Source of the DNA: Haliotis cracherodii
Taxonomy: Eukaryota
Direction of reading: 5' to 3'
Length of the DNA: 64,000 nucleotides
Assembly: GCF_022045235.1 (NCBI RefSeq)
Contig: NW_027266265.1
Location: forward strand, 3,224,001 to 3,288,000
Positions 5,835 to 56,349 of this stretch are shown here, one piece after another (position 1 is the stretch's first letter; each line of letters starts with the position of its first letter). The notes under the pieces were generated by a model, which saw only the letters and a list, made by a program, of their open reading frames with translations, did no database searches and was not told the DNA's origin. The translations under genes and the position numbers were made by a program.

Positions 5835-8800
5835 ATGAGTTGGGGATACGGAACCGAGAACGGTAAGTTGCTGCGGTGTGATAGTTCTTATTGTTCTTTA
5901 ATATTTCTCTGCTCGCTTTGTTCTTTATTCAGGTCAGATGTATTTCATGTGTGTTAATGAGCACTCTTAATTTTGTTTTTGCACCTTTCAAAAATCAGTT
6001 TGCAACCGGAATCTTTTCTCTGTGAAGGTGACTTTTTTAGATTTCTTATTTTTGATTTCCAACTTTTTAAAAAGATATTGCATTAATTTGGCAGGACATT
6101 GATAACGGCTTTTGAAACACAGTCAATATATTTGCAGTATTCTTTCTTTTGGGACAGTTCTTAGTATAGATAGATGATTTATTTAATAAACTCATTATCA
6201 CATCTATTATTTTTTAGATTCATTTACAAATATTTTTTGGTATAGTTTTTATTGTTTTAATTATAATCGTTCACATTTATTTTTGTCTTAAATGACACTG
6301 TCGTTGTAGGTGTAAGTTTGTTACCCTGTTGCTAGGTGAGACGTATATTATTTTTACCGAGCAAGTACAATATACAGTAACTAAGCAACATCTCGTCCTG
6401 ATGTTGAAATCGAATAATATTCGTTTGTTTGAATCCATACACCTTTTTATGAGCGAATATGACAGTTAGAAGTATTGCACAGAAAACGTTTTACAATGTG
6501 TATTTATCCTTCGGCATACTCTTCACGGGGTGTGTCCCCTTGTTGTTCAGTGAATGTAAACCGCATTCGTTCGCGTTTTGCCCTTGAACTAAACGACCCC
6601 ACATTTGTCGGCGGCTTGATATTTGAAATACACACTGGGTTCCGTCTTGTGCTACATCTGTTAACATAAGTCTAGACGCACCGATGGTGTGTATATGTAC
6701 TATAGTTTCCCCAAGGAGCGCATGGTAATGGGAGGAAGGTTCGTCTTCTTATATAAAACGGTACATGTTTTTCAGTTACCATACCTTTTAATAGTAAGCC
6801 CATTATGACTTTGTAATATTTTTGCCAACTTGACAGTTGGAGTTTGGTTGGTTAAGGGACTTCTTCAAAGCGTTTTGCATATCTATTTCAAATACCTGTG
6901 CTACTTCGTAGAAACACCTTTTTTATAACTTCATCTAAACATATTACAAACAGGCGTCTCTCTTAAGGAAACGTCCCTAGTTACGGGAATGCATCACAAG
7001 TGACATCTATATCCTTCTCTTAACGTAGATCTGTTGTGAAGGTGAAAGTGACAAATATCCATTAAGGTTGTCAGGTGGGGCTTATCAAGTCAGTGCACAC
7101 GTGTCAGTTGTCTGGCAGTACACCATCGACCTCCCGGTACCCGCAGTGCCTTCACTCAGGCGCACGGCGGACTGTGCATGACGTATGCCGGTCCTGATGG
7201 CTCTCTGTGGACATTAATCCTTAGTACCACGTGCCGTAAAGTAACAGCATGTAACATACACTTCTTAGAAAACTAGAACCCTTGAGGCAGATTCAACAAT
7301 GTTGTTTTCTACAAGTGTTCAGTAACTACAATAATTATGATATTGAGTAGAAGCAATGTAGACGGGTAGAAATATGAATCTCAATTAAGTGGGATGCATA
7401 ATTTCGGATCTTGCACAATCACACAATATTTATTTTGGATTTAATTGTACTACTTTGACAGATATTCTTGTACGGATATATCTGTGTATAAATCTGATGG
7501 ATTCGTGGAAAATGGTGTTCAGATAAGCCAGATGAGTTAAGATAAGATAAGCCATCCTATAAAGACCATACGGTTAAAAGCATCGACAAACCGAGGTACA
7601 ATGAAATCCTTTTTATTTGAAATGATTAAAGTAAATAACAGATGATTCTTACTAACCTGGGTTAAAAACGGACATTTGTAATTTGTACACCCTTCATATG
7701 TGGTTTTTAGCATCTTACTCATGTTTTAATGAGATGATTATCATAATATTTTTTATAAAATCAAGGGTATGGCCTTGACATGCTCCTGTTCTAGTGAGAT
7801 GGTTACTACCATATTGTAAAAACAAAAACGTGCAAACCATTGACATATCTCATTACCATACTGTATACACAAGAGTGTGTATAGCTTAGTCACGTATATA
7901 AAGCAACAGCTGGTCCTTCGAGAAACACTATACGTTGAATATTAATATAGAACAAATACTACAGTCCGAAATGTACAATGTACAATGAAGGAACAGATAT
8001 CTCATTGTAAGACATATGAGGACGCTAATTCGCAAGGACGTGTCATAGTATATATCTCTCCAGTTAATTCCCTTTGCGCCGCCATGCTCGGTTTAATCCA
8101 GTACACCACACACACAAGGTGACGAATGTTTTGTATATCAAACATGGCGTGCTCGTTTAGGTGCGTCTCAAAAAATGAATTAAATAAACTTAACGGCGCC
8201 TTTCACGATAGGCCAAATCAATTTGTTATATGTGTATTGACAATATGCCTCTGAATGATGCCTTACATAAATCTTTTATTGGGTTGAATTTATGACATTT
8301 CAAAATGCATTTAAACTTGTGATAAATAATATTCTGGGTAATAACGGATGTTCAACGGATGCTCACATACTTGCTGACATGGTTTTATGGGGCAATTACA
8401 CCAAACTTAAATACAATAAACATTAAACAGGCAAGAGCCGAAATTCACTTGAACAAGTTGGCGGGGTATGTCAGCAGCATGGAACATGTCAGGCCATGAC
8501 ATTGGTGGGTTACACTGGCACCCGTTGACAATACCAGGTGTCACCTAACCACTGTGTGCGTGTCAGCGTAGCCCAAGAACATAGGCAATCAATGCCCAAT
8601 ATCTACCATCTCAAATACTGTTCCGACTTTAATTGAAATTTAAAGTAGACAAACGTTTATTGATAACTTCTTGTTTATGTCACCTTGCCGTGTCTGTCAA
8701 GTCATGTTGTCTAATATCCGTATGTCACATTCTCTGATAACATTGTGCCACATTGTCTTTCACGTGATATTCCTGTTTTTTTCAGGACCCAAGTCATGGG

Positions 8801-11800
8801 TCAACAACTTCCCCATAGCCGCGGGCAAACAACAGTCTCCTGTGGACATCAACTCGACCAATGTCGAGTTCGACCAGAAGCTCGAGGCCAACCCTCTTTC
8901 TGTCAAGTACTATATCGAACAGAACATGGACTTCGAGAACACAGGGTTCTCCGTCAAGGCCAACATCCGGGAACCATCAAGTAAGTTCCACTTTAAATGA
9001 ACATCTTGCTTATTTAACGTGAGACAGTGAATGCTGTCTAACGTCACAACCAGCAATACCCTAGTCCATCACAGAGGCTCGTACAGAGTCGAGCCTGGGC
9101 AGTACAAGCCAATGGATGTACTCTCGGGGTTCTATAAAACCCAACAACCAAGTCTTCGAGTCTGACCACTAGAGCCGTTTTAGTCCACCCGTATGACAAG
9201 CATTGGTTGCTTAGGTGCATTTCTACCCGGTGTCCTCCAACCTTCCAACCATACCCAACTGCCCCCCCCCCCCTACCCCCCTAAACCATCCACCCATTTC
9301 ATTTGTCTCCACTTTACCCAGCACATCATCCGTTTGTCCGTCAAGACAGCTTGTTACAAAGATGCGAGGAGTTGTGTTGAACATGGTAACATATGTGTAA
9401 AATAAAATCTCCATTCTTTAATGCAGATAATCATAAACCATAAACATAATATTGTATAATCATGAATTACAATTTCCCAGCCATATCGATACAACGACAT
9501 CCTTTCTTCAACTGCAGAATCTGATTTGCCTATATCTAGCATGCTGATGTTGAACAATCTGTAACTGTGTTGCAGCTATCTCAGGGGGCCCCCTTGAAAG
9601 CACATATCAACTTGAGCAGTTCCATCTCCACTGGGGGTCATGTGACGAGAGGGGGTCGGAGCACACAGTGGAGGGCAAGACATTCCCAGCCGAGGTACTC
9701 TCTCCTAGACCACATGTAAAATATATCCGTCGTATATAAATGGTTATTTCAGTCAATCATAAGGCCACGACAAACGTATATTTTCCCAATGTATACAGAC
9801 TCGAGAAATGCGAACTTAAAGGGGAAGTGTACACGCAAAAATCACTTTCTTTCTTTTTCTAAACAAAACGCAATTTTAGAATTAGTTAGTATCTGTGTTT
9901 GAAAATATACACTCATTTTTTTTCACAGTGAAAGTAGGAAGCTCACAATAGTGTGAAAGTGATATGCCGTTATGAGGCCTTCGTTTTACGAGCGAAATAG
10001 GCCTGAGTTATCCCCCTTAGATTATGACGTAATTGGTGCCAATTTAACTGGGTCCCTGTCTATTCTCAACGCAAAAGATATCAAGGACCAGTTTGCGGTA
10101 AAACAACATGGTCTACGACACACTCCGGCGCAGTGGTGACTCAGCATAACACAATTCTGGCTGGCATCTGAGATGCTAGAATCACAAACTGTACCTACAC
10201 CACGTGAAGCGGCTCTAACAAAGCATGATGACGTCATAATGTTTATCAATTGGCACCAATGACGTCATATTGCAAGGGACATAAGCCATGGTGTTTTTGT
10301 TATGGAAATAGAACACTTGGAAAATGTGAAAAATATAAATCGTTTTAGTGCAAAAAATATGTTAATTGAATATGATGTTTTTTTATATTTTTGTCTATGA
10401 CACTTCTATGTTAACACTTTTAATGTGGAAAAAGTACAAGGAAAAAAGGTTCATTTCCGTGTGAATTTGCCCTTTAATGACTTAATGACGTACCTTCTAA
10501 CGTAATGGGTCGACAACAACAAAGATCTTGAGTCACAATTACTCTCCACTTAAACACGTACAGTCACAAGTAAACAATATTCTTTTCGATATTCAATTAT
10601 GTGCTTGTTTTCTTTACAAATGAATATCTGTTTTCAGCTTCATCTAGTCCATTGGAACCGAGATAAATATTCCAGCTTCGGCGAGGCCGCAGACAAACCT
10701 GATGGTTTGGCAGTGTTTGGCATCTTCTTGGAGGTAGGACCCTCAACTAAAGTCTCGAGCTAATGGAACGTGTACATTATTCCTTTAGGCTTGCGTGACG
10801 AATGAATCGCATGTAAAATATGTAATACAAGGAAAAGGTCTTGGTGCAAAACGTCCCAAGTGAATTTTATATTTTACGAATGCTTTTCACACTTTGACGA
10901 TTAACTGATCTCAACACGAGAAGGCCGTAGCTCCGAATTAAACTAATGAAACTATATTCCCATTTGTCTTCAGGTTGGCGCTGAGCATCCGGGTTTCAAA
11001 CCTTTAACCGACGGTTTAGATGCTGTCAAGTTCTGTTCCAAACATGAACAGGTCAAAGGCCAGTTCAACCCCAAATGTTTCCTCCCAGGTGAATTCTCAT
11101 TCATTCATCCATCTTTCCCTCTTTCCATCTGTCTTTACCCTACTCGCTATCCGTCAATTCATTTTCCTTATTCCAGAAACAAAGGGCTCCGTTCATACCC
11201 AGTAATGGATTCATTCATTGTTAAATTCCCATCATAGTAGTACTACTACGGAGAACAATAATGTCTATCATCTATATGCACTGGATGACTCAATATGAAT
11301 AGAATTATTTATAAGGCAGATACGCCGAATATGCAATTTGGCAACTGGACACGGTTAATTAATGAAAGTGTAAAGTGTCTGAATTAACTTACTAGTCTTA
11401 ACCTAAGCCCTGTATGTGTATGTGGGATCATGTACAATACTTCTTCTTCTCTCCAGAAACTCTGTCCGAGTACTGGACTTATCCCGGGTCTCTGACCACG
11501 CCCCCCTGCTACGAGAGTGTCACGTGGATAGTATTTAAAGAACATATGGTGGTGTCGGAGAGTCAGGTAAGCACACATTACCAACATGTACAGAAAATAT
11601 AGTTAATCAAATGTTTGTAAGGTCGTGTGAAGAGAACATATATTGAGAAGCCAAAGGAACTCTCACTTGATGTTGTCATGTTTGAACTTAACATCGCTTG
11701 AAAATATCTTAGGTTAGCAATAGTATATCCCAAAATACACTGTGCTGGCCCTAAGTCAGCACTCATACTTCTACGTGGTTATCTTAAAAAATATCATTTG

Positions 11801-12362
11801 ATTTAAAACGTATAATATGAAAAAATGGGAAAACTTTTTCGCATTATACACTGAAGGGTATCTTGAAAAATCTTGTCTTTCAAAATCATTGAGTCTGCCT
11901 TTTTCAAACACGGTAGGGGTCCTGTGGTTGCAAATTCATTTCTGATCACAGTCTTAATTGAACCAATCTATTTGTACACATAATAACCCAGCCACTGTTT
12001 TTTTCGAACTATTGGTTAATTTGATATACATTTAACAACAGTTCGTTCAATTTCCATCTATGTATTCTTTCTTGTTCCTCAGCATGTGTTTATGTAGGTT
12101 GGGACAATGGTTACTCCCAATAACAATATCCAATACGTATGTATCGTATATAAGAACCACTATAGTCACAGTCTAAAAGTTGAGACGAATATTAAATCCA
12201 CTGTCTCTTATCATTCCATGTCTTAGTTTTAAAAAATTCTGCTTTCAGTTAAAGGCCCTTCGAAGCCTGTGTTGGGGGGACTGTGACGGCGACTGCATCG
12301 TCGACAACTACAGACCACCGTGTGAGCTAGGCAGCAGAAAGATCCGAGCAGCATTTCATTAA
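5835..12362 (+). CDS. Alpha-carbonic anhydrase, cytosolic type, paralogue 1 (7 exons, 258 aa)
   Basis: Exons 5835-5862, 8786-8980, 9576-9694, 10638-10733, 10974-11088, 11457-11566, 12249-12362. All introns GT-AG with consistent phases; 777 nt total. Motifs MSWGY, QSPVDI, QFHLHWG (His94/96), GSEH (Glu106), ELHLVHW (His119), [15 protein letters not shown] (Thr199), DNYRP. No signal peptide. Confidence 0.96.
9820..10473. mobile_element. Kolobok-like non-autonomous DNA transposon in intron 3 of CA copy 1
   Basis: TTAA TSD (9816-9819, 10474-10477), AG...CT termini with imperfect TIRs, internal inverted repeat TGACGTAATTGGTGCCAATT / AATTGGCACCAATGACGTCA. Absent from copies 2-4. Confidence 0.8.
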
Positions 12363-12905
12363 CGATATCTGACTGACACACGGACAACGGCCCCGTCTGG
12401 CGGAAGGAATTGTAGAACACTGCCGCAATTGTTTGTGACTATCACAAAACAACGATGGACTGACATTGTCAGATCTCATCAGAAGTATAACAGAGCACTA
12501 GATATGAATCATGATCAATAGAATTCAGCTGGAATGATTCAATGAGCTGACACTATTCAATGTGTGTTCCGGGAGAACGAAAGGTTGACTTGAGCATGTG
12601 GAGTTATTGTTTCATGTATAGAGATCACGAGTAATGGTGGGAAATCATCAAGGAGTCCACGTGGTGTGATATTGTACCCCGATGGCAAGAATTGATGAAA
12701 CATTCATTCGCGATTTGCCGACTCTGTGGACAAACGAAGCGCCAATACTATTGGTCGCTGAACAAGGGGTCCCACCATCACTGAGTATCAGAGGTTCTGG
12801 CGTGAATGGATCATGACATTTCAACATTAATGCAACGTCTTTCATCATATCATTGTACGGAAGTCCATAGTGACGCAAGTCACTAGAATTTTCTTTTGCT
12901 ATTGC

Positions 12906-40900: not shown

Positions 40901-41879
40901 GCAATTTTGCAACTGGACACGGTTAATTCGTGTTAATAAAAATAGTGTCCAAATAAACTTCTATTCTTAATCTTACCCCTGTAGGTGTATGTAGAAATCA
41001 CGTTTAATGTTTCTTCTTCTCTTCAGACACAATGTCCGAGTACTGGACTTATCCCGGGTCTCTGACCACGCCCCCCTGCTACGAGAGTGTCACGTGGATA
41101 GTATTTAAAGAACACATGGTGGTGTCGGAGAGTCAGGTAAGCACCCATTATCTACATTTTCAAAGGATATATTTCATTAAAAGTTAATTCAAAATAGTGT
41201 ATCGTTTGAAGAATTAAAATGAACATAAATACAGGAGCAAAAGATACTACACCTCTCAGCTGATTTTATCATATGTTTGAACTTCAGTTGGGATTATCTT
41301 AGGTTAGCAATATTATATCCCAAACATAAACTGTGCTGGTGGGAAGCCAGCAGTCATGCTTCCACGTCGTTACATTTTTAAAATTAGGATTAGATTTACA
41401 ACTTTAAAAATGAATACATACTTTTCACATAATACACATCTGCTGAAAATCACAGTTCAAACATGTGGTTGAAAATTGATAGTCTTCATTGTACCAATTT
41501 ATTTTTACATTAAATGGACAAGAAGGCTCCTGTTTGTCCCGTAGGCAAAATTACTATTTCATTCGCCGTGTAATATCAATTTTGATCTCAAATAAGAACA
41601 AACATTATTCATTCTAAGAAAATCAGCATATAAATATATGAAGCCCTTATACTCATCGATATAAAAACATCAACGCTGGGGAATAAAGCGACTAAAAGTT
41701 GAGATTTAAATCAAATCCATTGTCTCTTTTCATTCCATCCCTGAATAAGTTTATTCTGCTTTCAGTTAAAGGCCCTTCGAAGTCTGTGTTGGGGGAACTG
41801 TGATGGCGACTGCATCGTCGACAACTACAGGCCACCGTGTGAGCTAGGCAGCAGAAAGATCCGAGCAGCATTTCATTAG
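34951..41879 (+). CDS. Alpha-carbonic anhydrase paralogue 3 (7 exons, 258 aa)
   Basis: Exons 34951-34978, 38026-38220, 39115-39233, 40012-40107, 40547-40661, 41027-41136, 41766-41879. Intact frame and motifs; about 7 aa differences from copy 1. Confidence 0.96.
35165..36300 (-). mobile_element. RTE-X-like LINE remnant in intron 1 of CA copy 3
   Basis: KTKLIV...[11 protein letters not shown]...[10 protein letters not shown] and [13 protein letters not shown]. Confidence 0.8.
38440..38680. repeat. About 64-bp C-rich tandem repeat in intron 2 of CA copy 3
   Basis: CATCCAACTGTCCTCTCCTCAAA...CATCCAACTGTGCCCCCTCAAAC, 3-4 units. Confidence 0.9.
38720..38888 (-). mobile_element. SINE family B in intron 2 of CA copy 3
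   Basis: 14-bp TSD ATAAATGCAAGGAG. Confidence 0.92.
39430..39698 (-). mobile_element. Family C retroposon in intron 3 of CA copy 3
   Basis: Matches family C; nested in a larger insertion at 39241-39706. Confidence 0.85.
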
Positions 41880-42463: not shown

Positions 42464-42620
42464 GGGACACGGGTGGCGGTGCTCGTGGGTTGCACCAAAT
42501 TAGTAAACGTCTGAGGCCTGCATCAGTTCGGGCTTTCGTCCCACATTAAACTGACACGCTGTGATATAACTGGAATACTGTTAAAAGCGGCGTTAAACCC
42601 AACTCACTCACTCACTCACT
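42464..42620 (+). mobile_element. SINE family A, internally deleted
   Basis: Head joined directly to the 3' half; TSD AAATGCC(T/C)AATA. Confidence 0.85.
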
Positions 42621-42820
42621 AAATGCCCAATAAATGTACAGTCATCGATTCCAAATTTTCAATTCACAATAAGTATGTTCAGAATTGAACACATTTCCAA
42701 AAGAGTTTTTTTCCAAAGCTATTTAGTAATTTATCACCTGAATATCTTTCTATCTCAAATTGTGTAAAAACAAAGTAATTAATACATTCAACATGGTGAA
42801 TAACATCGTTCTCCACATAG

Positions 42821-43170
42821 GTGAGGTGAAATGGGGTTTAACGTCGCGTCCAAGATTATTGCACTTGTATAGCGACGTACATATACGTGTGTGTGTTTGT
42901 GTGGCTGCTTGTACTAGTCCGGACTGATGCCGATTTATAGTGCTAGCGAACTGAGATACCATGCCGCAGTTTAACATGCATTACCCACTCAAACACAGTA
43001 TACTGACTCCGAGCCGACCAGTCCTTGTTTTAGCCCCTTAATGCCGAGCGCCAGACAGGGTAACAACAAGCACCATCTTTTGACGTCTTTTGGTATGACG
43101 CGGCCAGGGATCGAGCCCCAGACCTTCCGCTCTCCGGGCGGACGCTCTACCACTAGACCACGGAGGCGGT
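42821..43170 (-). mobile_element. Meta-type SINE (family D), full length
   Basis: tRNA-like head GACCGCCTCCGTGGTCTAGTGG...GCTCGATCCC; 14-bp TSD CGTTCTCCACATAG. Confidence 0.88.
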
Positions 43171-43220
43171 CGTTCTCCACATAGTCCCGCGTCACACCGG
43201 TTCTGCTGTTCATTAGACTG

Positions 43221-43482
43221 GACCCGTGAAGATCCGGGATAGAATTGGTCTTAAGCAACCCATTCTTACCGTAAAAGGCGACAGTGCTTGTCATAAAAGG
43301 CAACCAACGGGATCGGATGGTCAGATTCGCTGACTTGGTTGATGCATGTCATCAAATCCAAAATGCGTGGATCGATGTTCATGATGTCGACCCCTGGATT
43401 GTTTGGTCCAGACTCGATTATTTACAGACCGCCATCATACAGATAGAATATGGATGAGTGCGGCGTTAAAAAACAAACAAAT
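43221..43482 (+). mobile_element. Family C retroposon
   Basis: GACCCGTGAAGATCCGGG start, GCGGCGTTAAA tail. Confidence 0.85.
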
Positions 43483-44689
43483 CCAAGTACAATGATAAAA
43501 AAGATGGGTTCCCTTCCAGTGTACTCAATAAATACAGCAATAAATGCAGCAAAATCTCTACCCCATTTTGTCATACCAGGTCAATCTCTCCGACTGGATA
43601 TATGTAAACACACATAATGTAGCTCAACTGAAACCAAACATACTTTTATCCAACAGAATAGTATCGAACATCAATAACATATCTTACCAGTGAATATTTT
43701 ATCAAAAGTATTCCTCCCGAATGCCTCCTGAACTAGGGCCTTTTTTGTGGCTGGTAAACAAAAAGTTTATATTCTGGAAAAATGTCACTAAAGTAATTTT
43801 CTATTGACTATGTTTTATATAAAGCAACAATGCCATGTTCAGATACAAAAGAAACAAAGCCAATGTCAGACAAAAATCTTCTATATTCCTTGCAATGTAA
43901 GATAGGCTTTTGCATAACCTTCGTCCTTGACAGCAGTACCCGCTCCTAATCCACAGTTGACGATGTTCCACTCGAGTCGCGATCTGTGACTGGAGCCGAC
44001 AACTGATGCTCATCACCTTCCAGAGTAGTGGCTGGCTTGTCCTCAATAACGAGTCTGCCATTCTTATAATAGCCCCTCTTGTTCTCAGATCTGAGCAAAG
44101 TCAGTTTCTCACGCTGTCGCTTATGACGAGTAATTGCAAGAAACCGAGCAAAAAAAATAAAAAACGTGAAAATAGCAAATCATATCCTATATTTTCAATC
44201 AAACTTTGTTAACAAGAATATTTTACATTAAGGGGCGATATGTACGAAATTAACCCTTAATGTAAACAAAAATATTTTTTACATTCAGGGTTGCGAGTCG
44301 ATGCTCTTGATGTCATTTTTTTAAAATAAGATTTAACACGTAACCCTTAATGTAACATTTTTTACATTAAGAGTATTTTTTACAGGGGTGTAACAAAGGG
44401 GAGGGCTCCTTTGCAGTTTATCGCCATACTAAACACGAATCAAAATTTTAAATCTTCATATATATTTTAAGTCTCTCTGCTTATATAATTCATCAATTTA
44501 TTTTTTTCCCTTTCAATACTGCTCCACTTTTCATAGTTTTTAAATATAACTTTGCATAAATGACTCAATTGTAAACATATTAACTTGGTCTCGTCGCTAT
44601 ATGGCTGAAATCCTACCGATGCGACGTTAAATTTTAACTCACTCACCCTCTGCTGTGGAGATGTTCATCTTTACCCAAGACCCTTAATA

Positions 44690-47030
44690 GACACAGATTT
44701 AAAGATTATTCATCTAAACGTTCGTAGTATAAAAGACAAACTAGATATCCTTGAAGTTGAGCTTAGACATAATGATGTAATTTCAATTGCTTGTCTGAAA
44801 CATGGTTCCACACGGGTATGCATAACAGCGACCTAATTATTCCTGGTTTCCAGGTTCCATTAAAGGTTTGTTTGTTGTTTAACGCCGCACTCAGTAATAT
44901 TCCAGCTATATGACGGTCTGTAACCAGACAACCCAAACAATCCAGTGATATACATTATGAGCATCGATCCACGCAATTCGGATACGATGAAATGCATCAA
45001 CCTAGTCGATTTAGGAAAGACAGGTCAACTCGAGGGGGTGGCATATTTATTTACGTTAGAGATAATATGTATGTCAAATATATGTATCCGCTTATAGTTG
45101 GTCTAGAGGCGATATGAGTACATGATAAATGCACAACTATTATGTGATTATTTGATTGGTACTGTCTATCGTGCAGATAAGAGTGGAGCGTATTGGGAAT
45201 TGATCAATGAATAGGAAACACAGTTGATATGAATATGTATACTGAAATTGCAGGAGATTTTAATATAGATACTTCGAGAGAATAATTAAAAAAATCGAAT
45301 ATTTGCAAATGGTGCATGGACGTTCACACATTATTAGAGAACCTACGAGGATCACCATACATTCCAGTACGTTGATAGATTTACATTTTGTGACAGACGT
45401 TGATAGTGTACAGGATTCGGGAGTACCTTGATCCAGTTTGTAGCGAATACAGTCCAATTTTTGTAACCATAAAAGAAATAATCCCTTTAAACGTAAAGTG
45501 CATTATTATTCCATAGCAGACCTAGATGGTTTAAATATAGACTTGCTGAAAATTGTTGGTGATTTAGTACTCTCATCGGGGGATGTGAACACAATTACTG
45601 ACGAATCTACATCTCGAAAAGACCCGTGAAGATTCCAGGGTCGAATATGTCTTCAGCAACCCATGCTTGCCGAAAAAGGCGAGTATGCTTGTCGTAAAAG
45701 ACGACTAACGGGATCGGGTGGTCAGGCTCGCTGACTTGGTTGATGCATGTCATCGATCCCAATTGCGTGGATCGATGCGCATGATATTAATCACCGGATT
45801 GTCTGGTCCAGACTCGATTATTTACAGACCACCGTCATATAGCTGGAATATTGCTGAGTGCGGCGTTAAACAACAAACCAACCAACCAAACAATCGAATT
45901 ATAAAAGTTTGTTGTAAACATATTCCTAATAAAATTGTTACCGTGCGATTAAAGGATCCACAGTGGATCAATAATGAGATACGTTCCTTAATAAGAAAAC
46001 GAATTCGACAACACAAAAAAAGCTAAAAGACGTAATACTCCATCTGAAATTTAGTAAATTTAGCAAATAATGTAATCGAATATGTCCGTAAGGAAAAGAA
46101 AGCATATGCATCTAACATTAATACTGTAATGAATAGTTCTTAAAGACATGATGACGTTTAGTAAAGGAATTTCTTTAATTTAAAACTGCAAAACACAATT
46201 TTCCCGCAATGATATTTGGGGATAGGTTGTATGATAATTACATGGATATTGCTAATATTCTCAATAGCCTTGTGGACAAATCTCGTATATGAAAACCTGA
46301 TATCCACTTTCCACCCTTTAGAACTATATAAAGTTGATAGGGGGGCACGGGTTGCCCAGTCGTCTAAGGCGCCGCGATTCGCTGTGCAGAGTTGCGTCCT
46401 TAGGGCACGCCAGAAACCTATGATTGTGGGTTCGAATCCCGGTTCGCCCCGATTATGTTTCTAGGTTTGTCAGCACCATACCCGTGGTCGTGGGTTTCAC
46501 CGAAGTGGTAAACGTCTGAGACCTGCATCACTTCGGGCTTTCTTCCCACATTAAGCTGACACGCTCACTCACTATAAAGTTGATAATCGATTAGTCAATA
46601 TAATTTTGATGGAAGATGAAGTTAGGGACATACACCTTTCCGTGTACACCACAAAGGCAACTTGTCCTGGTGGTATTGGAAATAAAGTACTTAAAAAACA
46701 GCTTACAGTTTAGTCCAAATCCGGTACAATGTGTGAAGCCCATTTCTGGTGTCCCCCGCCGTGATATTGCTGGAATATTGCTAAAAGCGGCGTAAAACCA
46801 TACTCACTCACTCACTAGTCCAAATCCTTACTGAACTATTCAATTTCACTCAACGAGCAATATTACCATCACTAAAGACAGAAGCTCTTTTCATTCCTAT
46901 TCATAAGAAGAATAACGTGAATAAATGCACAAATTACAGACAGGCTACGCTCACAAGTTGTTTAGCAAATATATTTGAAAAATGTTATTTAAACATATGT
47001 ATAACTATTTAAGGAATAATAACAATTTGC
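44690..47030 (+). mobile_element. Decayed CR1/L2-type LINE (endonuclease to RT start) with four nested short retroposons
   Basis: IIHLNVRSIKDKLDIL...ETW...IPGF...RKDR..RGGGIFIYVRD; PQWINNEIRSLIRKR; PGGIGNKVLK; PIHKK...NYR. Nested: family C (44866-45008 minus; 45621-45891 plus), family A (46340-46572, TSD TATAAAGTTGATA), family B 3' half (46723-46815, TSD TAGTCCAAATCC). Confidence 0.8.
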
Positions 47031-47034
47031 TCAC

Positions 47035-47345
47035 TAACCTGGATATCGACCAAACCTGTCTTGCGATGAGAGACAGGCGCCCACATCATAACGCTACCCA
47101 CACCAAATCTACCCACTTCCTGTTTCCGGCGTAACGTTCTCCCCGACGTCTGTGGACCAGTGCTCTTCCATCCCCTCGATGGAGGAGAAATCTTGATTCG
47201 TCGCTGAACCCCGCTCAAGATCGCTCCATCCGACTGCGTCACCTACGTGAAAGGATGACCACAGCCACCTCAACAGCATTCCAAATACCCGGACTGCGCA
47301 GAATCTCCGACCAGACCTTAGGAAACCGTTTAAGGGCAGTTAGAT
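47035..47345. mobile_element. Tc1/mariner transposase fragments in opposite orientations
   Basis: Minus strand: RFGVGSVMMWAPVS..KTGLVDI (DDE region). Plus strand: PAQDRSIRLRHLRER...RISDQTLGNRLR (HTH region). Confidence 0.75.
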
Positions 47346-48146
47346 GATGTGAGTGTACTTCTAAATGGAATTACCTGTCAATTCCGCTCATGTGTTGATG
47401 GTCAGGGATGACACGTCCATGTATTGTCCCCTGTGATAGGTGGCCACGTCATAGACAAGCTGGACGTAATCAATGCACGCGACTGTCGTATGATGTCGTG
47501 CAACAGATCTGTCACTCAAATATGCGTTGTCAATTTCAGTTGATGTCATGCATTCCGTGTAATTCCAGGCGTCCTTGTTCTGTTTACAAACTGTGCCTGT
47601 TAGTTCTGCTGTCGAGATGCATCGACTGATAGATTTGCACAAAACAACCCTTAGATTATTTTTTAAGAAAAAAGAAATCTCTTCTGCAAGATAGATTAAG
47701 ATATGACAAGGCGTAATACTATATGATAAATAACAAATATACACAAACTGCCAGAGTGAATTCATATCTATCAGAGATCTGATTTAATACATGAACAAGA
47801 ACGTGATGTTCAAGAATAACATGACATGTTATGAAAACATAGGCTATGACTTTACCGACGCATATTCAATCCAACACACTGCACGCACTGACAAGCTACC
47901 ACCATTCACAATAGGTACACGTATTACTCAATAAATACATCAATGAGTACGCATTATACATTGAGAACAAGGTAAAAATACACTACCTTCCTGATCCGAT
48001 ACCAAACATAACCCTGCTTAAAGGGCTATAAAGCGTCAGTCAACATACGTTAATCTCCACAGTCACTAATCTTTTGTTTTAAGGTACATATCCCTGTGTA
48101 TCAGATCTGATGGATCCGACATGACACTCACTATGGTTGGCTATAT

Positions 48147-49629
48147 GGTTTGTTCCCACTGTGTCGGCAGATTATTTCGTATTAATTAAGATAATTCGGA
48201 TTAGCCGTCATGCTTTGCTACACTGCCGACACTAATTAGTATATTTCATGAACTTGGCATTGTTATTAACCAACTCTAGTTTTGTTATCCGAACTACTCG
48301 TACGTGCTATTGAAGGCCCTGATGTAGTGAACACCGTCCTCACGTTCTACAGCGACCACGGCAGCCTGTACACGGCTGTCAAACACGTGTTTGTCTGTAA
48401 AGGTTCTACTACACCAAATCAGAACCAGTTTGGACAGTGCGGTTTTCGTAGGGGCCTTCAGTGCAGATCAAGAGATATCTGCAGGCTGTGATTGGAGGAT
48501 ATTCTGTAAGATTTTTATGTCTTCAATTGTACATCCATCCAGTTATAAAACTAACCATGTTTTTCTATATTTAGTACTGTCTTTTTCGGCATGATGACTT
48601 ATGCTGAATGTGACCACAGCTATTTTCAAGTAGGTGACATTTGGTGCGAAACTGGGGGTGGTGTGTTCAGCTTCCTGTACTCGGAAAAGGGGCTGGCTAA
48701 GCTAGTCATTTCTTATTTTTTTATTGCTGCTCTAAGGCCAAACTGTGCACACACGTACAGGTAATAGCTGTTGAATGCTTAGTTATTTAAAAAAAATATA
48801 ACGTTACTATAGAAGTCTATGGGAAAACATTTGGTTGTGTGTAACCTGTAAACTGAATGGTTGCCTTTTTCACTTCCGACAGAAAGTTTGGCGCAATGTT
48901 CAGAAGTGTGATCTGCAAACTGCCTCAGCAAACAATCCTGATGTTAACCTTTTTGTTAACCAGAACCGCCGTGATATTGCTGAGTGCGGCGTTAAACAAC
49001 AAACAAACCAAACCAATGAACCAGAACCAGCCGGCACGATGGTATCTTCCCAAAACGTAGACCTGCCAAAACGCAGACCCATTAAAACAACACTCGTTAT
49101 GGCTGGTTGCATCAGTAATAAGTACCCTGTACCCTTGATTATGTAAAATGGTATCACCCATGTAACAAGAAAGAAAGCTGGGTAGATTTCACAAAATTTT
49201 ATTCAAATGTTATTTCATTGTCATTTATGATTATCAGTCATTTTCACTTGTTTATCATCAGTGGACCAACTGCATCCAGGTACTGAAGGGGTGTCTTTTC
49301 ACGGCGATGAAGCTGTTCCTTGAGTCGGACAAGGCGATGTTCTTTATCTCTGTAGACAACCTTCCTGGGTGGCGGTGCTGCTCCAAATCCAAATTGCATC
49401 TGCGCTAGTTTCGCTCTCCGAAATTTCTACCTTCTGGATCAGTTCGATAAATCTGAAGATGTTTGGATGCGTGTGCTGATTCTTGCCGATTCTGGAGTGG
49501 AAACCTTCTAGGTTGTTGTTTGTACGATATTCCCCATTTTAATCCTTCTATTGTTGTAGGGATTAGCACGGAAGACAAGCTAAATTACCCTAAACAATAG
49601 CTGCCGGCACAGTGTGAACACCCCGCCCT
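48147..49629. mobile_element. Mutator-like (MULE) non-autonomous element inserted in the TATA box of CA copy 4
   Basis: Imperfect TIRs (GGTTTGTTCCCACTGTGTCGGCAG... / ...CTGCCGGCACAGTGTGAACACCCC). Transposase relics GCLFHFRQKVWRNVQ (plus, about 48856) and RTNNNLEGFHSR...HPNIFRFIELIQK (minus, about 49530-49430). Confidence 0.8.
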
Positions 49630-49699
49630 TATATTGCTCGGCCCTGGTTGTACAAGCCTCCAGTCAGTTCAGACTTAGCACCAACACACAGCAGTCATC
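49621..49699 (+). promoter_or_regulatory. Remodelled core promoter of CA copy 4 (GC box plus residual TATA)
   Basis: CCCCGCCC 49621-49628 directly before TTATATTG. The ancestral upstream promoter is displaced to about 47345-48146 by an insertion. Confidence 0.5.
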
Positions 49700-52600
49700 A
49701 TGCAATGGGGATACAGCACCGAGAACGGTAAGTTGCTGCGGTATAAATTATTCGTATTCTTTAATATTCCATTTTTGCATTGTAAGCCTTCTTATTTTTG
49801 ATTTTATAACTTTCTAAAATAGTATTGTATTAATTTGACACAGTAGGTGTATTTGCAGTATTCCTCCTATTGGGCAAGCGGTCTGAAAAGAATAACGACT
49901 CAAGAATGTAAAATCATTGTAAAAAAACACAAAATAGCTACGATTGAGAGTAAATATAATGTAAAGACGTGAAAGGTAAATATACTTATGACGACGTGCA
50001 TTATAAATAGTGATTTCACATTTTATTTCACAATATATGAAGGTTTATATATATCATAAAGTGACTGGCAGCGTTCACTTAGTGTAATTACAGTCCTGAA
50101 AATTCACAATACACCCGTACACGTACGTGTATTAAAGATCAACGTCATATCTAAACGGTGTCTACAAGTTTAAAAGCATGTCACACAGATAATTTGTTTA
50201 AAAGAACAGCTTCAAGATCCTTACAACAGTTTTGTTATTTTGACAGTTTTATAAATCTAGGTGTATTTCTGTATAAACTGTAATAAGGACAGTGCATAAG
50301 GAAGTGGATTTCATCTTCTATCTTGTTTAAATTACAGATTTTTGATTTTCTCTGGTCGGCACACGTGTTGGTGTATCTGCCTCTTTCAATCTCCAGATTA
50401 TGACAACTTAATTTAGTTAGAGCTAATCTATTATCTTTACACTTTACTATGAATACACAAAGTCAGCGATCTATAATAAACCCACTCAGCCACAGAGGCT
50501 TCCACAAAAATGAAAGTCCGACAACTAGTAGTCTAGATCACGTACTTTTTTTGTGGAAGCCTCGGTGGCTGAGTGGGTTAGATCGCTGACTTTGTGTGCT
50601 GGCGATTAGGTGCCTCGCTATGGCAAGTGTGGGTACGAATTCCGGACTTTTACCCAAAAGGTACGAGAATCTGTACTTTGCTAAGAAAGTGTTATCCTAA
50701 ATATAATTTCTTTTACACTTTACTGCTGAAACATACTTCTAAAGCCTAAATTTATCGGTTATAATTCCTTCATATCTCAGTTTTTGTGTTAACGTGATTA
50801 CCTTCAATCAGAAATTTGTTTTAAATAGCTTCATTGAAATTTGTGCAAGATGCATTTTCACTTTGAATTTGGGAAATAAGTGTGTCTTCAGATGTTCAAA
50901 AGATTGCAGGACATTTTGGGTGAGGCCAAATATTATAGCATTTCTCAGGCGCTGGAAAAACAAATGGACATATATATGTACAGAAAGAGGGTACAGTCTT
51001 CTATTACCTGTCACTCCCAGGATCTGCTTTGCTATTTTGATAGTGAACTCACATAACAAAGTGATTATGACCAATTTTGACACATTTCGGATAATGGGGA
51101 TGAGAAGTTGAATGCAGTGTACATGTTCCCATGTTTCAGTGCCACTCCAAGATTGTAGGAGTCCACTACATCAACGATTTGATTGCCCAATTTAAATTGA
51201 AGTTTATTTTCTTTGACGATCCTCCCAATAGAAGTATCTTTGCTACGTTAACCTTAAGTTAAACCCTCATAATGGGAATGCATCACAGGTGACACCATAA
51301 CAAATCTACGTTAAGAGAAGGATATAAGTGACAATCCCCGATTCAGGTTGTCAAGTAGGACTTATCAAGTCAGAGCACTCGTGTCAGTTGTCTGGCAGTA
51401 CACCATCCCGGTACCCGCAGTGCCTTCATTCAGGCGCACGGCGGACTGTGCACCACGTATGCCCGCCCTGATGGCTCTCTGTGGACATTAATCCTTAGTA
51501 CCACGTTACATAAAGTGACAGACAATTACTAGAAAATAGTGTTTAGGTAAATTATCCTATAATGACCATACAGTTAAAAGCATCGACAAACATACTCTTG
51601 AGGCAGGATGAAATCCTTTCATTGGGAAATGATTAAGTAAATAACACATGGTTGTTATTAACCTGGCTGAACAAAACGGACATTTGTAATTTGTGCATCC
51701 TTCGTATGTGTTATTTAAACTTTTGTTACTGTCTTCATGGGATTAAATTATTAATTATAACATTGTTTATAAATTACCGGTAAACCCTAGATATGTACCT
51801 CTTTAAATGTGATGGTTGTTACCATAGTGTATAAACAAGAGCGTGCATAGTCAGTCACGCGTGGAAAGCAATAACTGGTCCTTTGCGAAACAATATACAA
51901 TAAATATCAATACAGAGAAAAAGTACCACCATCCAAAATATGAAATGTTATTGCCCCGAATGAGCAGGTATGTCCGTGTGAGACCAATATGGACGTTCAT
52001 CGTATGGACGTGTTAAGTTATATCTTCCTCCAGTGAATTCCCTATGTGCCGCCACGCACGGCTTAATCCAATACAGTACACACACGAAATGACGTTAACG
52101 TTGTTTTTAATGTCAGTATCAAACATGGTGTGTTTATTTGGGGGCGTCTCACAACATGAATGACATAAACGAAACAATGCCTTTTACGAAATGCCAAATG
52201 CATTTGTTATATGTTTAATGACATGTTTTTATGCCTCAGAAAGATATGGGCATTTAACCTTACATTGGGTTGAATTTATAACATTTCAAAATGCATTTAA
52301 ACTTGTCATTACTTAAATTATTATCATTAGCATGTACAGATTAAAATAAGAAATGCTGCAAAGAGGGTTTGGGTGATACTGGCACAGTCAGGCTGGTCAG
52401 GGTCATCATCTGCTCAGGGTCCTGGCCCCCTCTGCACGCAGCACAGACAGCGAATGGGACTTCTCCCAGGAAGCGCTGCCTAGTCGAACCCATCCAGAAC
52501 TGTTCGGAGAATGTGAAGACTCCCCAACACTGCAGCCTTCTGCATTACCCAGATTGTCAGAAGAACTGTATTTCTGGTAGCAAACCTGGGTACTCTCCCA

Positions 52601-55600
52601 ATGTCAGTCAAGGGATTGGGAGGTACCAAACCTAAAGCACCAAGAACAATGGGGAGTCAGACAACTTAGTACTTGGGATGCAAGCGTGAGATTATTATAA
52701 GTAACGTAACAGTTTTGTCTTAAAGCCGTGTCTGTCATGCCACGTTGTCTGATATCATAATGTCACGTTGTCTGATATCTTTATGTCACGTTGTCGGATA
52801 TCTTTATGTCACGTTGTCGGATATCTTTAAGCCACGTTTTCTTATATCCTTATACCACATTGTCTTGTCATCATGTGATATTCTTGGTATTTCAGGACCC
52901 AAGTATTGGGTCAACAACTTCCCAATAGCCGCGGGCATGCAACAGTCTCCTGTGAACATCAACTCGACCAATGTCGTGTTCGACCAGAAGCTTGAGGCCA
53001 ACCCTCTTTCTGTCAAGTACTTCATCGAACAGAACATGGACTTCGAGAACACAGGGTTCTCCGTCAAGGCCAACATCCGGGAACCGTCGAGTGAGTCACT
53101 TTAAATGAACATCTTGTTTATTTCACGCGAGACAGTGAATGTTGTTTAACGTCGGTAAGATCAGAAGCTTGATAATAGTCGAGTGTGGGCCATGTAAACC
53201 AGTGACAGAAAGCTTGAACAACGACCAACGTTATTGCGATTCAGTGCAATCAACCAAGTCATCGAGTCTGCCCACCCGAGCAGTTTTACTCCACCCTTAG
53301 GAGAAGCATGGGTTGTTGTGGCATTCCTACCGCGAGTGAGCATGAGGGGGTAACACATAAACTCTCCTCATTTCGACCCGTGAAGATAGGATAGGTCTTC
53401 AGCAACCCATACTTACCATAAAAGGACACTATGCTTGTCGTAAGAGTTGACGAACGGGGTCAGATGGTGACGCTCCTTGACTTGGTTGATGCATGTCATC
53501 GTATCTCAATTGCATAAATCGATGCTCATGATATCAATCACTGGATTGTCTGGTCCAGATTCGATAATGAACTGACCAACGTCATATAGCTGGACTATTG
53601 CAGAGTGCGGCGTTAAACAACAAATATCTCACATCTCCTAACTCCACATTACAATCACCATATCATCCACACCTATCCAACTCTGCCCCCTCAAACCATC
53701 CATCCACACTCAACTGTCCCTTCCTCAATTACGCCAAATCTGGGGGCACGATTGGGCCAGTCGCCTAAGGCGCCGCGACTCGCTGTGCAGAGTTGTGTCC
53801 CTTAGGCACCCCAGAAACCTATGATTGTGGATTCGAATCCCGGTTCGCACCGATTATGTTTCTAGGTTTGTCAGCACCATACCCGTGCTCGTGGGTTTCA
53901 CCGAAGTGGTAAACGTCTGAGACCTTCAACACTTCGGGCTTTCCTCCCACATTAAGCTGACACGCCGCGGTATAACTGTAATAGTGTTAAACTCACTCAC
54001 TACTCGAAATCTGCCCATGTCTGGCATGCTGATGTTGAACATTGCGTAACTGTGTTGCAGCTATTTCAGGGGGCCCCCTGGACAGCACGTATCAACTTGA
54101 GCAGTTCCATCTCCACTGGGGGTCATGTGACGAGAGGGGGTCGGAGCACACAATGGAGGGCAAGACATTCCCAGCCGAGGTACTCTCTCCAAGACCACAT
54201 GTAAAATATATCCGTCAGTGTATAAATGGTTATTTCACTAAATCACCACGACAAACGTCTTGTCTCCCCATGTACGTATACATATGTGAACTAAATTACA
54301 TACATTCTAAAGTATTGAGTCATATTTTTTCTCCACTTAGACTGGCCAGAAGAAAACAAGTACAATCTTAAGTAAACAATATCCAATATTTTCGATATTC
54401 GATTCGATGTTATGTTCGTTTTTTGCAACTTGATATTTGCTTTCAGCTTCATCTCGTCCATTGGAACCGTGATAAATATTCAAGCTTCGGAGAAGCTGCA
54501 GACAAGCATGATGGTTTGGCAGTGTTTGGCATCTTCTTGGAGGTAGGCCCCTCAACTAAACTCTCCGTTCAATGAAACGTGTACATTTTTTCCCTCTTGG
54601 CCGGCGGAGCGAAAGAAGCGCATGTAAAATATATGTACTACAAGGAAAGGTTCGATGCAAAACATAAAAAGGGATTTTTTTATTTTGTGAATGCTTCTCA
54701 CACTTTGACGATTAACTGATTTTCGGCTGATGTCCATAATTAAAATAAGGAAACTATATTCCTTTCTACAATCAAGTACTTTACATAAATTAGGGTAGAT
54801 GGATCATAACAAGACGTACAATATGAGTATTCTAATCTGAACTTGGGGTTCCTGTGTTTCAACCCTTCGCTCCAAACCTGTCTCATCCAACATTTAAGTG
54901 AACGCATTGAGAGAGAATTAAGTGACACACATTTGAGTGTGATTTACACGCATTTATCTTCAGGTTGGCGCTGAGCATCCGGGTTTCAAACCTTTAACCG
55001 ACGGTTTAGATGCTGTCAAGTTCCGTTCCAAACATGAGCAGGTCAAAGGCCAGTTCAACCCCAAATGTTTCCTCCCAGGTGAGTTAAGTTCTCATTCATT
55101 AATCCATGTTTCCATCTGTCTTTACACTTCTCGTTATCCGTCAATTCATTTTCCTTATTCCAGAAACGTAGGGCTCCGTTCACATCCAGTATTGTATTCA
55201 TTCATTGGGAATTTTATATCATTGCACGGAGAACAATAATTTCAACTATATACACTGGATGACTCAGTGTGAATAAAATTATTCAAATGGCGTATATGCC
55301 GAAAATGCACTTTTTCAACTGGTCATTGTTATTTCGTATAAATGTAACAAAAACAGGGTCTAAGTTGACTTACGATTCTTAACCCAAGCCCTGTATGTGT
55401 ATGTAGAGACCATGTACAATAATATTTCTTCTCTTCAGACACAATGTCCGAGTACTGGACTTATCCCGGGTCTCTGACCACGCCCCCCTGCTACGAGAGT
55501 GTCACGTGGATAGTATTTAAAGAACACATGGTGGTGTCGGAGAGTCAGGTAAGCACACATTATCTACATTAATAAAAAAATGTAGTTAATTGAAAATTGA

Positions 55601-56349
55601 TTAAAATCTGATTTAGTCAAATGTTTGAGGGGTGTAATAGATACAACAAACAAATTGAGGAACAAAAGAAACCATACCTACAAGTTGATTTTATCATATG
55701 TTTAACTTCAATATCTAAGGTTAACGATATTATATTGCCAAAAATAAACTGCTGGCGCTAGGTCAGCACTCATACGTGGTTATATATATCTTTTAAAATA
55801 TGATTTTGTTTAAAACTTTTAATAATGAAATTGTTTTTCACATAATAATACACATCTGCGGATCGGTATCCGAAACATCATATCTTTCAAAAAAGTAAAT
55901 TTGCATTTTTTTATCACATTTCCAACATGGTAGAGGATCTTGTAGTTGCAAATTCATTTCTTATCTCTCTTTTCACTGAATGAATTTCATTTTAAACATT
56001 ATTATTCAGCTACGGAACTGTTGGTTGAATAGACATACATTCAAAACTACTTTCGGTATACTTTCTTTTGCCCCTCAGTATATGTGTATGCGAGTAGATT
56101 CACTCCCAATGGGAATACCATATGTATGTATCTTACATAAGAACAACAATGATCTGTCAAAAAGTTCAGATTAAATCCATTGTCTCTTATCATTCCATGT
56201 ATAAGTTAAAAAACGTATTCCGCTTTCAGTTAAAGGCCCTTCGAAGTCTGTGTTGGGGGGACTGCGACGGCGACGGCGACTGCATCGTCGACAACTACAG
56301 GCCACCGTGTGAGCTAGGCAGCAGAAAGATCCGAGCAGCATTTCATTAG
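49700..56349 (+). CDS. Alpha-carbonic anhydrase paralogue 4 (7 exons, 260 aa)
   Basis: Exons 49700-49727 ([10 protein letters not shown]), 52896-53090, 54061-54179, 54447-54542, 54964-55078, 55439-55548, 56230-56349 (2-aa DG insertion). Intact frame and Zn ligands. Confidence 0.95.
49890..51230 (-). mobile_element. RTE-X-like LINE remnant in intron 1 of CA copy 4, with nested insertions
   Basis: Paralogous to 35165-36300. Confidence 0.65.
50449..50712 (+). mobile_element. tRNA-derived SINE fragment with a fold-back inverted 5' end
   Basis: GCCTCGGTGGCTGAGTGGGTTAG (A box)...GGTACGAATTCC (B-box-like), preceded by its own reverse complement; flanked by duplicated TTTACACTTTACT. Confidence 0.65.
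52335..52700 (-). mobile_element. 3' fragment of an R4/NeSL-like (REL endonuclease) non-LTR retrotransposon
   Basis: Minus strand [11 protein letters not shown]...[18 protein letters not shown]. Confidence 0.7.
52735..52865. repeat. 23-bp tandem repeat upstream of the exon 2 acceptor (copy 4)
   Basis: ATGTCACGTTGTC(T/G)GATATCTTT, about 6 units. Confidence 0.9.
53375..53624 (+). mobile_element. Family C retroposon in intron 2 of CA copy 4
   Basis: Matches family C. Confidence 0.85.
53743..54003 (+). mobile_element. SINE family A in intron 2 of CA copy 4
   Basis: Matches family A; ends about 57 nt before the exon 3 acceptor. Confidence 0.88.

What the first reader, a model, noticed from the sequence alone, without database searches (positions are those of the whole stretch)
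5835..56349. Four-gene tandem array of intact, near-identical cytosolic alpha-carbonic anhydrases
Seen: four same-strand 7-exon genes with ATG spacing of 17.5, 11.7 and 14.7 kb and no inactivating mutation, while introns and flanks have diverged through many independent TE insertions and deletions. The ORF track misses the array because the exons are short. Known: molluscan alpha-CA expansions are associated with biomineralisation and acid-base regulation, usually through secreted or membrane forms. Inference: an intracellular CA kept in four copies by dosage selection or tissue subfunctionalisation.
Basis: partly seen in the sequence, partly recalled or inferred. Interest (0 to 1): 0.75.

Follow-up and report, generated by a model that had tools for sequence, protein, structure and literature searches.

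The report
Abalone cytosolic carbonic anhydrase tandem array
An abalone genome carries four intact side-by-side copies of a predicted intracellular carbonic anhydrase gene that likely swap pieces with one another, with one copy likely doing most of the work; this is a real but fairly ordinary gene duplication in a well-known enzyme family.

Summary
Observation confirmed. Four same-strand, 7-exon alpha-carbonic anhydrase genes lie at 5835-56349 (ATG spacing 17,466/11,650/14,749), all GT-AG, without stops, 258-260 aa, 7-18 aa differences per pair. Host genus Haliotis. They are paralogues, not haplotigs: introns differ 16-19% in all 6 pairs, g2-g4 share one gap-free stretch, and one DNA run holds g2-, g3- and g4-type sequence; another species label holds g3- and g4-type introns. 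Zinc ligands are intact, no signal or membrane segment is seen, and the His64 proton shuttle is Phe (25 of 38 molluscan relatives lack His). Pairwise dN/dS is 0.11-0.30, but constraint looks uneven: g1 11 synonymous:3 replacement private changes against 12:23 in g2-g4 (p=0.01), g4 has a 1.5 kb insertion at its promoter, g3 lacks the shared poly(A) signal. A 215-nt identical g2/g3 tract and switching tree topologies point to patchy gene conversion. Related-species RNA confirms splicing and g1-type and g2/g3-type transcripts; g4 expression is not shown. No evidence ties it to shell building. Similar local duplications appear in other molluscs. Ordinary; interest 0.22.

The parts
5835..12362 (+). 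g1: alpha-CA gene, 7 exons (5835-5862, 8786-8980, 9576-9694, 10638-10733, 10974-11088, 11457-11566, 12249-12362), 258 aa; most constrained copy
   Evidence: exon 2 is 100% identical at protein level to H. rufescens CA2-like; Pfam PF00194 on 4 of 6 exons scanned
23301..27433 (+). g2: alpha-CA gene, 7 exons (23301-23328, 24398-24592, 25229-25347, 25680-25775, 26170-26284, 26633-26742, 27320-27433), 258 aa
   Evidence: region held at 0.47-0.69 of sampled words by 6 DNA runs of organism A in 2 studies
34951..41879 (+). g3: alpha-CA gene, 7 exons (34951-34978, 38026-38220, 39115-39233, 40012-40107, 40547-40661, 41027-41136, 41766-41879), 258 aa
   Evidence: RNA joints at 39233>40012 and 40661>41027, DNA contigs on introns 5 and 6 in runs X1 and X7
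49700..56349 (+). g4: alpha-CA gene, 7 exons (49700-49727, 52896-53090, 54061-54179, 54447-54542, 54964-55078, 55439-55548, 56230-56349), 260 aa with a 2-aa insertion; most diverged N-terminus
   Evidence: DNA contigs on exon 1 and introns 1, 3, 5, 6 in X1, introns 5-6 in X7
5448..5834 (+). Proximal promoter and 5' UTR conserved in g1-g3 (91-94% identical), TATA-like box at about 5742-5747 (function inferred)
48130..49629 (.). About 1.5 kb repeat-containing insertion directly upstream of the TATA-like box of g4, displacing its upstream promoter homology to 47340-48126; g4 also lacks 22 nt of 5' UTR (boundaries approximate)
   Evidence: high repeat depth in bins 48024-49351
27419..27633 (+). 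215-nt tract (end of exon 7 into 3' UTR) identical between g2 and g3 (41865-42079): candidate recent conversion tract
   Evidence: 215 of 215 identical; same tract 161 of 177 to g1, 165 of 189 to g4; next g2/g3 stretch 252 of 284
12904..12918 (+). Shared distal poly(A)-signal block, also at 27990 (g2) and 56883 (g4); absent after g3, whose UTR homology ends at about 42385
9816..10477 (.). g1-specific intron-3 insertion with TTAA ends and imperfect terminal inverted repeats (MITE-like; class name recalled, not tested)

Best explanation
These are four intact tandem paralogues of a zinc alpha-carbonic anhydrase predicted to be cytosolic, which likely arose by unequal crossing-over in an abalone ancestor and likely still exchange short stretches by gene conversion, with g1 likely the main, tightly constrained copy and g2-g4 likely accessory copies under weaker selection. 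Shown: gene models, intact zinc and gatekeeper residues, Phe in place of the His64 proton shuttle, paralogy, presence of g3- and g4-type introns under two species labels, spliced transcripts of the family in two related species. Inferred: the enzyme hydrates CO2 in the cytosol for pH and ion regulation at a moderate rate (the His64-less mussel enzyme has kcat 4.2e5 per s against 1.4e6 for human CA II, PMC6010101); the duplicated unit was 12-17 kb and included the promoter; conversion keeps exons of g2-g4 more alike than their introns; repeat insertions have begun to alter the regulation of g4 (promoter) and g3 (3' end).
For: Paralogy: intron divergence 0.163-0.185 in 6 of 6 pairs against 0-4.4% between the window and run X1 in the 7 listed X1 pieces that lie on gene sequence (1 of 8 listed lies on a repeat), and 2.6-6.8% in the 4 such pieces of X7; X1 also holds 0.69 of g2 words. 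Enzyme: H91/H93/H116, E103, T198 in 4 of 4 copies; model of the close relative P0001 matches human CA XIII/II at TM 0.95; best PDB sequences CA VII and II; highest 19-residue hydropathy 0.82-0.89. Conversion: 215-nt identical tract; informative sites cluster by split (21 adjacent agreements against 13.1 shuffled, p=0.006); AU tests prefer (g1,g3|g2,g4) for intron 3-exon 5 and (g1,g4|g2,g3) for intron 6-UTR (rejected trees p=0.005-0.036); pair-exclusive intron blocks switch partners (intron 2: g1~g2, g3~g4; intron 6: largest g2~g3, g1~g4); private synonymous rate of g2-g4 12/489 against intronic 51/939 (p=0.009) or 93/1458 (p=0.0005). Asymmetry: private changes g1 11 syn:3 non-syn, g2-g4 12:23 (Fisher p=0.0099); g1-diagnostic UTR features in RNA runs X12 and X13, and the single RNA contig per run over g4's 6-nt insertion lacks it.
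Against: The clustering test weakens after thinning (15 against 10.7, p=0.068); blocks for AU tests were chosen after seeing the data, and 2 of 4 blocks did not single out one tree. Short identical tracts can also come from assembly or polishing across paralogues; no listed organism-A contig covers the 215-nt tract. Private-site counts are small, the g1-versus-rest comparison is post hoc, and g1's private class may include the branch to a g2-g4 ancestor (at least 2 of g1's 3 private replacements match H. rubra). Pairwise dN/dS among g2-g4 is still 0.20-0.30 (p<=0.003), so they have been under purifying selection. RNA came as contigs from other species labels, RNA status is a guess, tissue unknown, and the tool states that contig depth cannot rank genes. 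No activity or localisation data.
Confidence: 0.55

Rival explanations
1. All four copies are co-expressed and kept under similar selection for total enzyme dose, possibly making up for the slower His64-less enzyme.
For: 4 of 4 intact; dN/dS 0.11-0.30 in 6 of 6 pairs; g1-g3 promoters 91-94% identical; g1-type and g2/g3-type UTRs both occur in RNA of two species labels; array older than the A/B split.
Against: Uneven private dN/dS; g4 promoter insertion and g3 poly(A) loss; most His64-less molluscan relatives in the tree show no such young array, and the His64-less mussel enzyme is only about threefold slower than CA II (PMC6010101 passages); a separate Haliotis cytosolic CA keeps His64 (P0061).
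Confidence: 0.2
2. The copies are split by tissue or stage (for instance gill, mantle, larva), one of them feeding bicarbonate to shell formation.
For: g4 has a different proximal upstream region, and upstream flanks differ beyond about 400 nt; an intracellular CA serves spicule formation in calcareous sponges (PMC4265532 passages).
Against: No tissue data; all active-site residues checked (25 positions) are the same in the four copies; the giant-clam cytosolic CA2-like was not detected in shell-facing epithelium (PMC5727267 abstract and passages); the abalone mantle CA read in passages is a secreted 349-aa protein (PMC8138131).
Confidence: 0.15
3. g2-g4 (above all g4) are no longer functional and are held in frame only by conversion from a working copy.
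For: Private changes of g2 (4 syn:9 non-syn) and g4 (5:11) do not differ from neutral (p=0.28, 0.23); the g4-type UTR contig in X13 has depth 3.9, like intronic contigs in X12 (2.4-4.2).
Against: No damage to any of 48 splice dinucleotides, 4 starts or the frames despite 16-19% intron divergence; g4's own indel is in frame; g2/g3-type UTR contigs occur in both RNA runs; synonymous evidence points to exchange among g2-g4 rather than from g1.
Confidence: 0.07
4. The array is an assembly artefact of uncollapsed haplotypes.
For: Two N gaps lie between g1 and g2; no listed contig spans two genes.
Against: Four types that all differ by 16-19% in introns cannot be two haplotypes; g2-g4 are gap-free; one run holds three types, and a second species label holds two.
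Confidence: 0.03

Closest known systems
Haliotis rufescens 'carbonic anhydrase 2-like isoform X2' (P0001) and H. rubra 'carbonic anhydrase 2-like' (P0002), database annotations
   Same: Same gene family and lineage: 9-15 and 22-29 alignment differences from the four copies; both have Phe64; Haliotis clade 100/100.
   Different: P0001 equals none of the copies: g1-type up to residue 52, g4-type from residue 82 including the 2-aa insertion, plus 3 private changes. H. rubra falls outside the four copies (98/91).
Vertebrate cytosolic alpha-CAs (human CA II, VII, XIII)
   Same: Fold (TM 0.95, 46% identity), three zinc His, Glu106, Thr199, size about 260 aa, no targeting signal. Recalled, not from a call: human CA1/2/3/13 also form a tandem cluster of 7-exon genes.
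   Different: His64 is Phe, Asn62 is Thr, residue 67 is Lys; copies are 93-97% identical, far younger than the vertebrate isozymes.
Mytilus galloprovincialis MgaCA (PMC6010101, passages read)
   Same: 255-aa molluscan alpha-CA with zinc ligands and gatekeepers, without His64, and active.
   Different: Lys rather than Phe at 64; bivalve; no array described in the passages read.
Lineage-specific cytosolic CA duplicates in other molluscs (Sinanodonta ACJMK2_010064/66/67, Potamilus CHS0354_038560/63, Gigantopelta, Pinctada)
   Same: Own-lineage clades in the tree; neighbouring locus tags or equal contig lengths suggest local duplication (not checked on DNA).
   Different: Longer branches between copies; the unionid ones keep His64.
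Abalone mantle CAs (HdhCA I, HdhCA II) and nacreins
   Same: Alpha-CA domain, same genus.
   Different: HdhCA II is 349 aa with a signal peptide and about 29% identical to human CA II (PMC8138131 passages); HdhCA I is 337 aa (PMC8082251, search listing only). The array proteins are 258-260 aa without such signals.

Membership tests
Alpha-carbonic anhydrase (PF00194) | Profile match above the curated cut-off | tested here: met
   4 of 6 g1 exons scanned score 34-55 bits, cut-off 27; exons 5 and 7 gave no hit alone
Alpha-carbonic anhydrase (PF00194) | Three zinc His (94, 96, 119) and gatekeepers Glu106, Thr199 | tested here: met
   H91, H93, H116, E103, T198 in 4 of 4 copies
Alpha-carbonic anhydrase (PF00194) | Alpha-CA fold | tested here: met
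   Model of P0001 (stand-in, 9-15 differences from the copies), pLDDT 94.7, TM 0.95 to human CA XIII
Alpha-carbonic anhydrase (PF00194) | CO2 hydratase activity | not testable with these tools
   needs an assay
Cytosolic alpha-CA clade | No signal peptide, membrane helix or C-terminal anchor; domain starts at the N-terminus | tested here: met
   Hydropathy only, no dedicated predictor: highest 9-residue mean in first 38 aa 0.68, highest 19-residue mean 0.89; WGY motif at residues 3-5
Cytosolic alpha-CA clade | Closest solved relatives are CA II/VII/XIII | tested here: met
   60 of 60 shown PDB sequence hits are CA II or VII. The tree held no secreted CAs, so clade placement was not tested by tree
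Cytosolic alpha-CA clade | Cytosolic localisation | not testable with these tools
   needs immunolocalisation or tagging
CA II-type high-turnover isozyme | His64 proton shuttle | tested here: not met
   Phe64 in 4 of 4 copies; His in 13 of 38 molluscan relatives examined
Secreted or membrane shell CAs (nacrein, HdhCA II type) | Signal peptide or anchor, longer chain | tested here: not met
   PMC8138131 passages
CA-related proteins (CARP, acatalytic) | Loss of one or more zinc His | tested here: not met
   all three present
Tandem array under partial concerted evolution | Conversion tracts or topology switching along the gene | tested here: inconclusive
   215-nt identical tract and AU p 0.005-0.036 in 2 of 4 blocks support it; thinned clustering p=0.068 and possible assembly homogenisation leave doubt

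The most novel reading that the evidence does not exclude
Abalones amplified a His64-less, slower cytosolic carbonic anhydrase, and unequal crossing-over still changes copy number (the g1/g4 mosaic P0001 would be a real fusion allele), making this locus a copy-number dial for intracellular CO2 and pH buffering that contributes to heritable differences in tolerance of acidified, upwelled water.
Probability: 0.07. Interest if true: 0.55.

Novelty: new member of a known kind. Interest (0 to 1): 0.22.

Why it matters
Modest. It gives a clean gene model for an abalone cytosolic CA family that I did not find described (7 literature searches; open-access library only). In practice, 95-96% identical exons mean that RNA-seq and qPCR of 'CA2-like' in abalone acidification or shell studies pool four genes, and database models can be mosaics across copies (P0001). 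If copy number varies between animals it becomes a testable candidate for acid-base tolerance in a farmed and threatened genus.

Tried and rejected
No whole genome is held for this window, so further copies elsewhere and flanking synteny remain open. Which species and how many copies make up P0001's 9-member cluster is not known here. The run search listed no holder on record as RNA for organism A (no evidence either way); the two RNA runs laid are guesses by the tool and carry other species labels. The joint 38220>54061 (g3 exon 2 to g4 exon 3, 28-nt side) was rejected as evidence of read-through splicing: multi-mapping between copies explains it. The strong topology counts of the first alignment (25:3:6 in intron 2, 6:5:44 in intron 6) were rejected as alignment-driven; strict filtering left 1429 columns and 40 informative sites. 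His64 loss as an abalone novelty: rejected (25 of 38 molluscan relatives lack His). The N-terminal extension of H. rubra P0002 as a signal peptide: rejected, since it resembles a translation of the g3 promoter and 5' UTR. No other host gene stood out among 29 stop-to-stop frames of 110 aa or more (judged by eye, not scanned against Pfam). Earlier-findings look-ups gave nothing relevant. PMC10236652 (passages) had nothing on CA arrays with conversion. Supplements were not opened for any paper; supplementary gene tables of abalone genome papers may already list this array.

Full report
Observation. Self-comparison shows four collinear + strand units. Building g1 from its splice signals and mapping each exon gives four 7-exon genes with ATGs at 5835, 23301, 34951 and 49700, all 24 introns GT..AG and no internal stop. 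g4's last exon starts at 56230 and has an in-frame 6-nt insertion, giving 260 aa against 258. Pairs differ at 7-18 residues. No other host gene was apparent among 29 long frames.

Identity. Exon 2 of g1 is 100% identical at protein level to Haliotis rufescens 'CA2-like X2' and 88% to H. rubra 'CA2-like', so the host is an abalone; the species is not established. Pfam PF00194 hits 4 of 6 exons scanned. With P0001 as full-length stand-in, the next relatives are molluscan CAs at 59% identity or less (120 of 5661 hits listed, 47 aligned, 42 used in the tree). The best solved relatives are human CA VII and II by sequence and CA XIII/II by fold (TM 0.95). All four copies keep the three zinc His, Glu106 and Thr199 equivalents and have no hydrophobic segment: predicted active and cytosolic. 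His64 is Phe. That is not special: 13 of 38 molluscan relatives have His, 25 do not, and the Lys64 mussel enzyme has kcat 4.2e5 per s against 1.4e6 for human CA II (PMC6010101, passages). A separate H. asinina CA, 52% identical, keeps His64.

Real paralogues. Alignable intron sequence differs by 16.3-18.5% in all 6 pairs. g2-g4 lie in one gap-free stretch; two N gaps separate g1. Six DNA runs of organism A from two studies hold 0.47-0.69 of the words of the g2 region. Laid on 37400-57300, run X1 gave listed contigs on g3 introns (3 of 315, 0 of 556 with 27 gap letters, 18 of 406 different) and g4 (12 of 805, 0 of 340, 4 of 317, 2 of 555); its eighth listed piece lies on a repeat. Run X7 (organism B) gave g3-type (13 of 353, 10 of about 380) and g4-type (8 of 209, 17 of 251 with 13 gap letters) pieces; its other 4 listed pieces lie on repeats (only 32 of some 240,000 pieces were shown). 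One sample thus carries at least three types, and the g3/g4 duplication predates the A/B split. In the protein tree H. rubra falls outside the four copies (98/91), which suggests duplication after that split, though conversion can mimic it.

Expression. Two runs guessed to be RNA (X12, organism D; X13, organism B) show GT..AG joints at three predicted introns within one copy and one exon 2/3 joint across copies. A loose end in X12 at 56771 is a 16-mer found only in g1's UTR among the four 3' regions, and an indel pair in X13 at 42118/42123 fits g1's UTR (513 of 728 depth there). UTR contigs of g2/g3 type occur in both runs (28 of 553 and 9 of 287 different). The one RNA contig per run over 56264 lacks g4's insertion; a g4-type UTR contig in X13 has depth 3.9, no more than intronic contigs in X12. 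So the family is spliced and at least two types are transcribed in relatives; g4 expression is not shown. Contig depth cannot rank genes and the tissues are unknown.

Selection. Pairwise dN/dS is 0.11-0.30, below 1 in 6 of 6 pairs (Nei-Gojobori, p<=0.003). Changes private to one copy are 11 synonymous:3 replacement in g1, 4:9 in g2, 3:3 in g3, 5:11 in g4; g1 against the rest p=0.0099; g2 and g4 alone do not differ from neutral. Counts are small, the test is post hoc, and g1's class may include an ancestral branch. Regulatory drift agrees: g1-g3 share about 400 nt of promoter at 91-94%, while g4 has about 1.5 kb inserted just upstream of its TATA-like box and lacks 22 nt of 5' UTR; g3 lacks the poly(A) block shared by the others.

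Exchange between copies. g2 and g3 share 215 identical nt across the stop codon, where g1 and g4 differ by 9-13% plus indels and the next g2/g3 stretch by 11%. After strict filtering, 40 informative sites cluster by split (p=0.006; 0.068 after thinning); AU tests favour different trees for intron 3-exon 5 and for intron 6-UTR, and do not resolve the other 2 of 4 blocks. Pair-exclusive indel blocks switch partners along the gene, and synonymous sites of g2-g4 carry fewer private changes than their introns (2.5% against 5.4-6.4%, p=0.009-0.0005). Patchy conversion is the likeliest cause; assembly homogenisation is not excluded. P0001 is itself a g1/g4 mosaic: either a gene model joined across copies or a true recombinant.

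Mechanism. Likely: unequal crossing-over multiplied a 12-17 kb unit with its promoter; repeats then accumulated in introns and flanks; conversion partly homogenises exons; g1 supplies most of a moderately fast cytosolic CO2/bicarbonate catalyst for pH and ion regulation; g2-g4 are intact accessory copies under weaker constraint (0.55). Rivals: equal dosage (0.20), tissue split including shell supply (0.15), dead copies held open by conversion (0.07), artefact (0.03). Nothing here links the array to shell formation: the abalone mantle CA read is secreted (PMC8138131, passages) and the clam cytosolic CA2-like was not detected in shell-facing epithelium (PMC5727267, abstract and passages), although a sponge intracellular CA does serve spicule formation (PMC4265532, passages).

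Novelty. Lineage-specific alpha-CA duplication in molluscs is published (PMC6639325, passages), and own-lineage cytosolic duplicates appear in unionids, Gigantopelta and Pinctada. Seven searches of the open-access library showed no paper on this array in their listings; subscription papers and supplements were not seen. Verdict: real, new member of a known kind, interest 0.22.

Noticed in passing
P0001 compared with window genes g1 (5835-12362) and g4 (49700-56349): The H. rufescens database protein is g1-like to residue 52 and g4-like from residue 82, including the 2-aa insertion: a chimeric gene model or a real unequal-crossover product.
   Followed up: partly
window 34831-34950 compared with P0002 N-terminus: The 54-aa N-terminal extension of the H. 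rubra model resembles a translation of the TATA-box region and 5' UTR of g3, so it is likely an annotation error.
   Followed up: partly
window 42262-42267 and 42385: g3 has lost the shared distal poly(A) block but has its own AATAAA about 380 nt after the stop; an organism-D RNA contig runs past it to 42385, where UTR homology ends.
   Followed up: partly
exon 7 of all copies, for instance 12249-12362: Cys-rich acidic loop near the C-terminus; 7-8 Cys per protein against 2-6 in the four vertebrate rows; many molluscan relatives are also Cys-rich. Could be a redox or metal site; untested.
   Followed up: no
window 13168-13697, 29317-29457, 52737-52865: Three unrelated-looking minisatellites all have a 23-nt period; the last lies just upstream of g4 exon 2.
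   Followed up: no
window 38443-38680: 67-nt tandem repeat (3.5 copies, 96% matches) in g3 intron 2, with one related unit in g4 intron 2 at 53670-53736.
   Followed up: no
window 1239-1520, 1893-2170, 16021-16294, 46341-46564, 53741-53991, 58935-59212 and 18423-18685, 39432-39704, 43221-43486, 45620-45889, 53375-53624, 61852-62070: Two families of 220-280 nt dispersed repeats (77-95% identical), very high-copy in the laid runs and present in RNA contigs; SINE-like by size (label recalled, not tested).
   Followed up: no
window 21988-22470 (-), 30198-30650 (+), 35966-36349 (-): Frames that look like decayed retroelement fragments (RNase H or reverse-transcriptase tails, by eye and recall).
   Followed up: no
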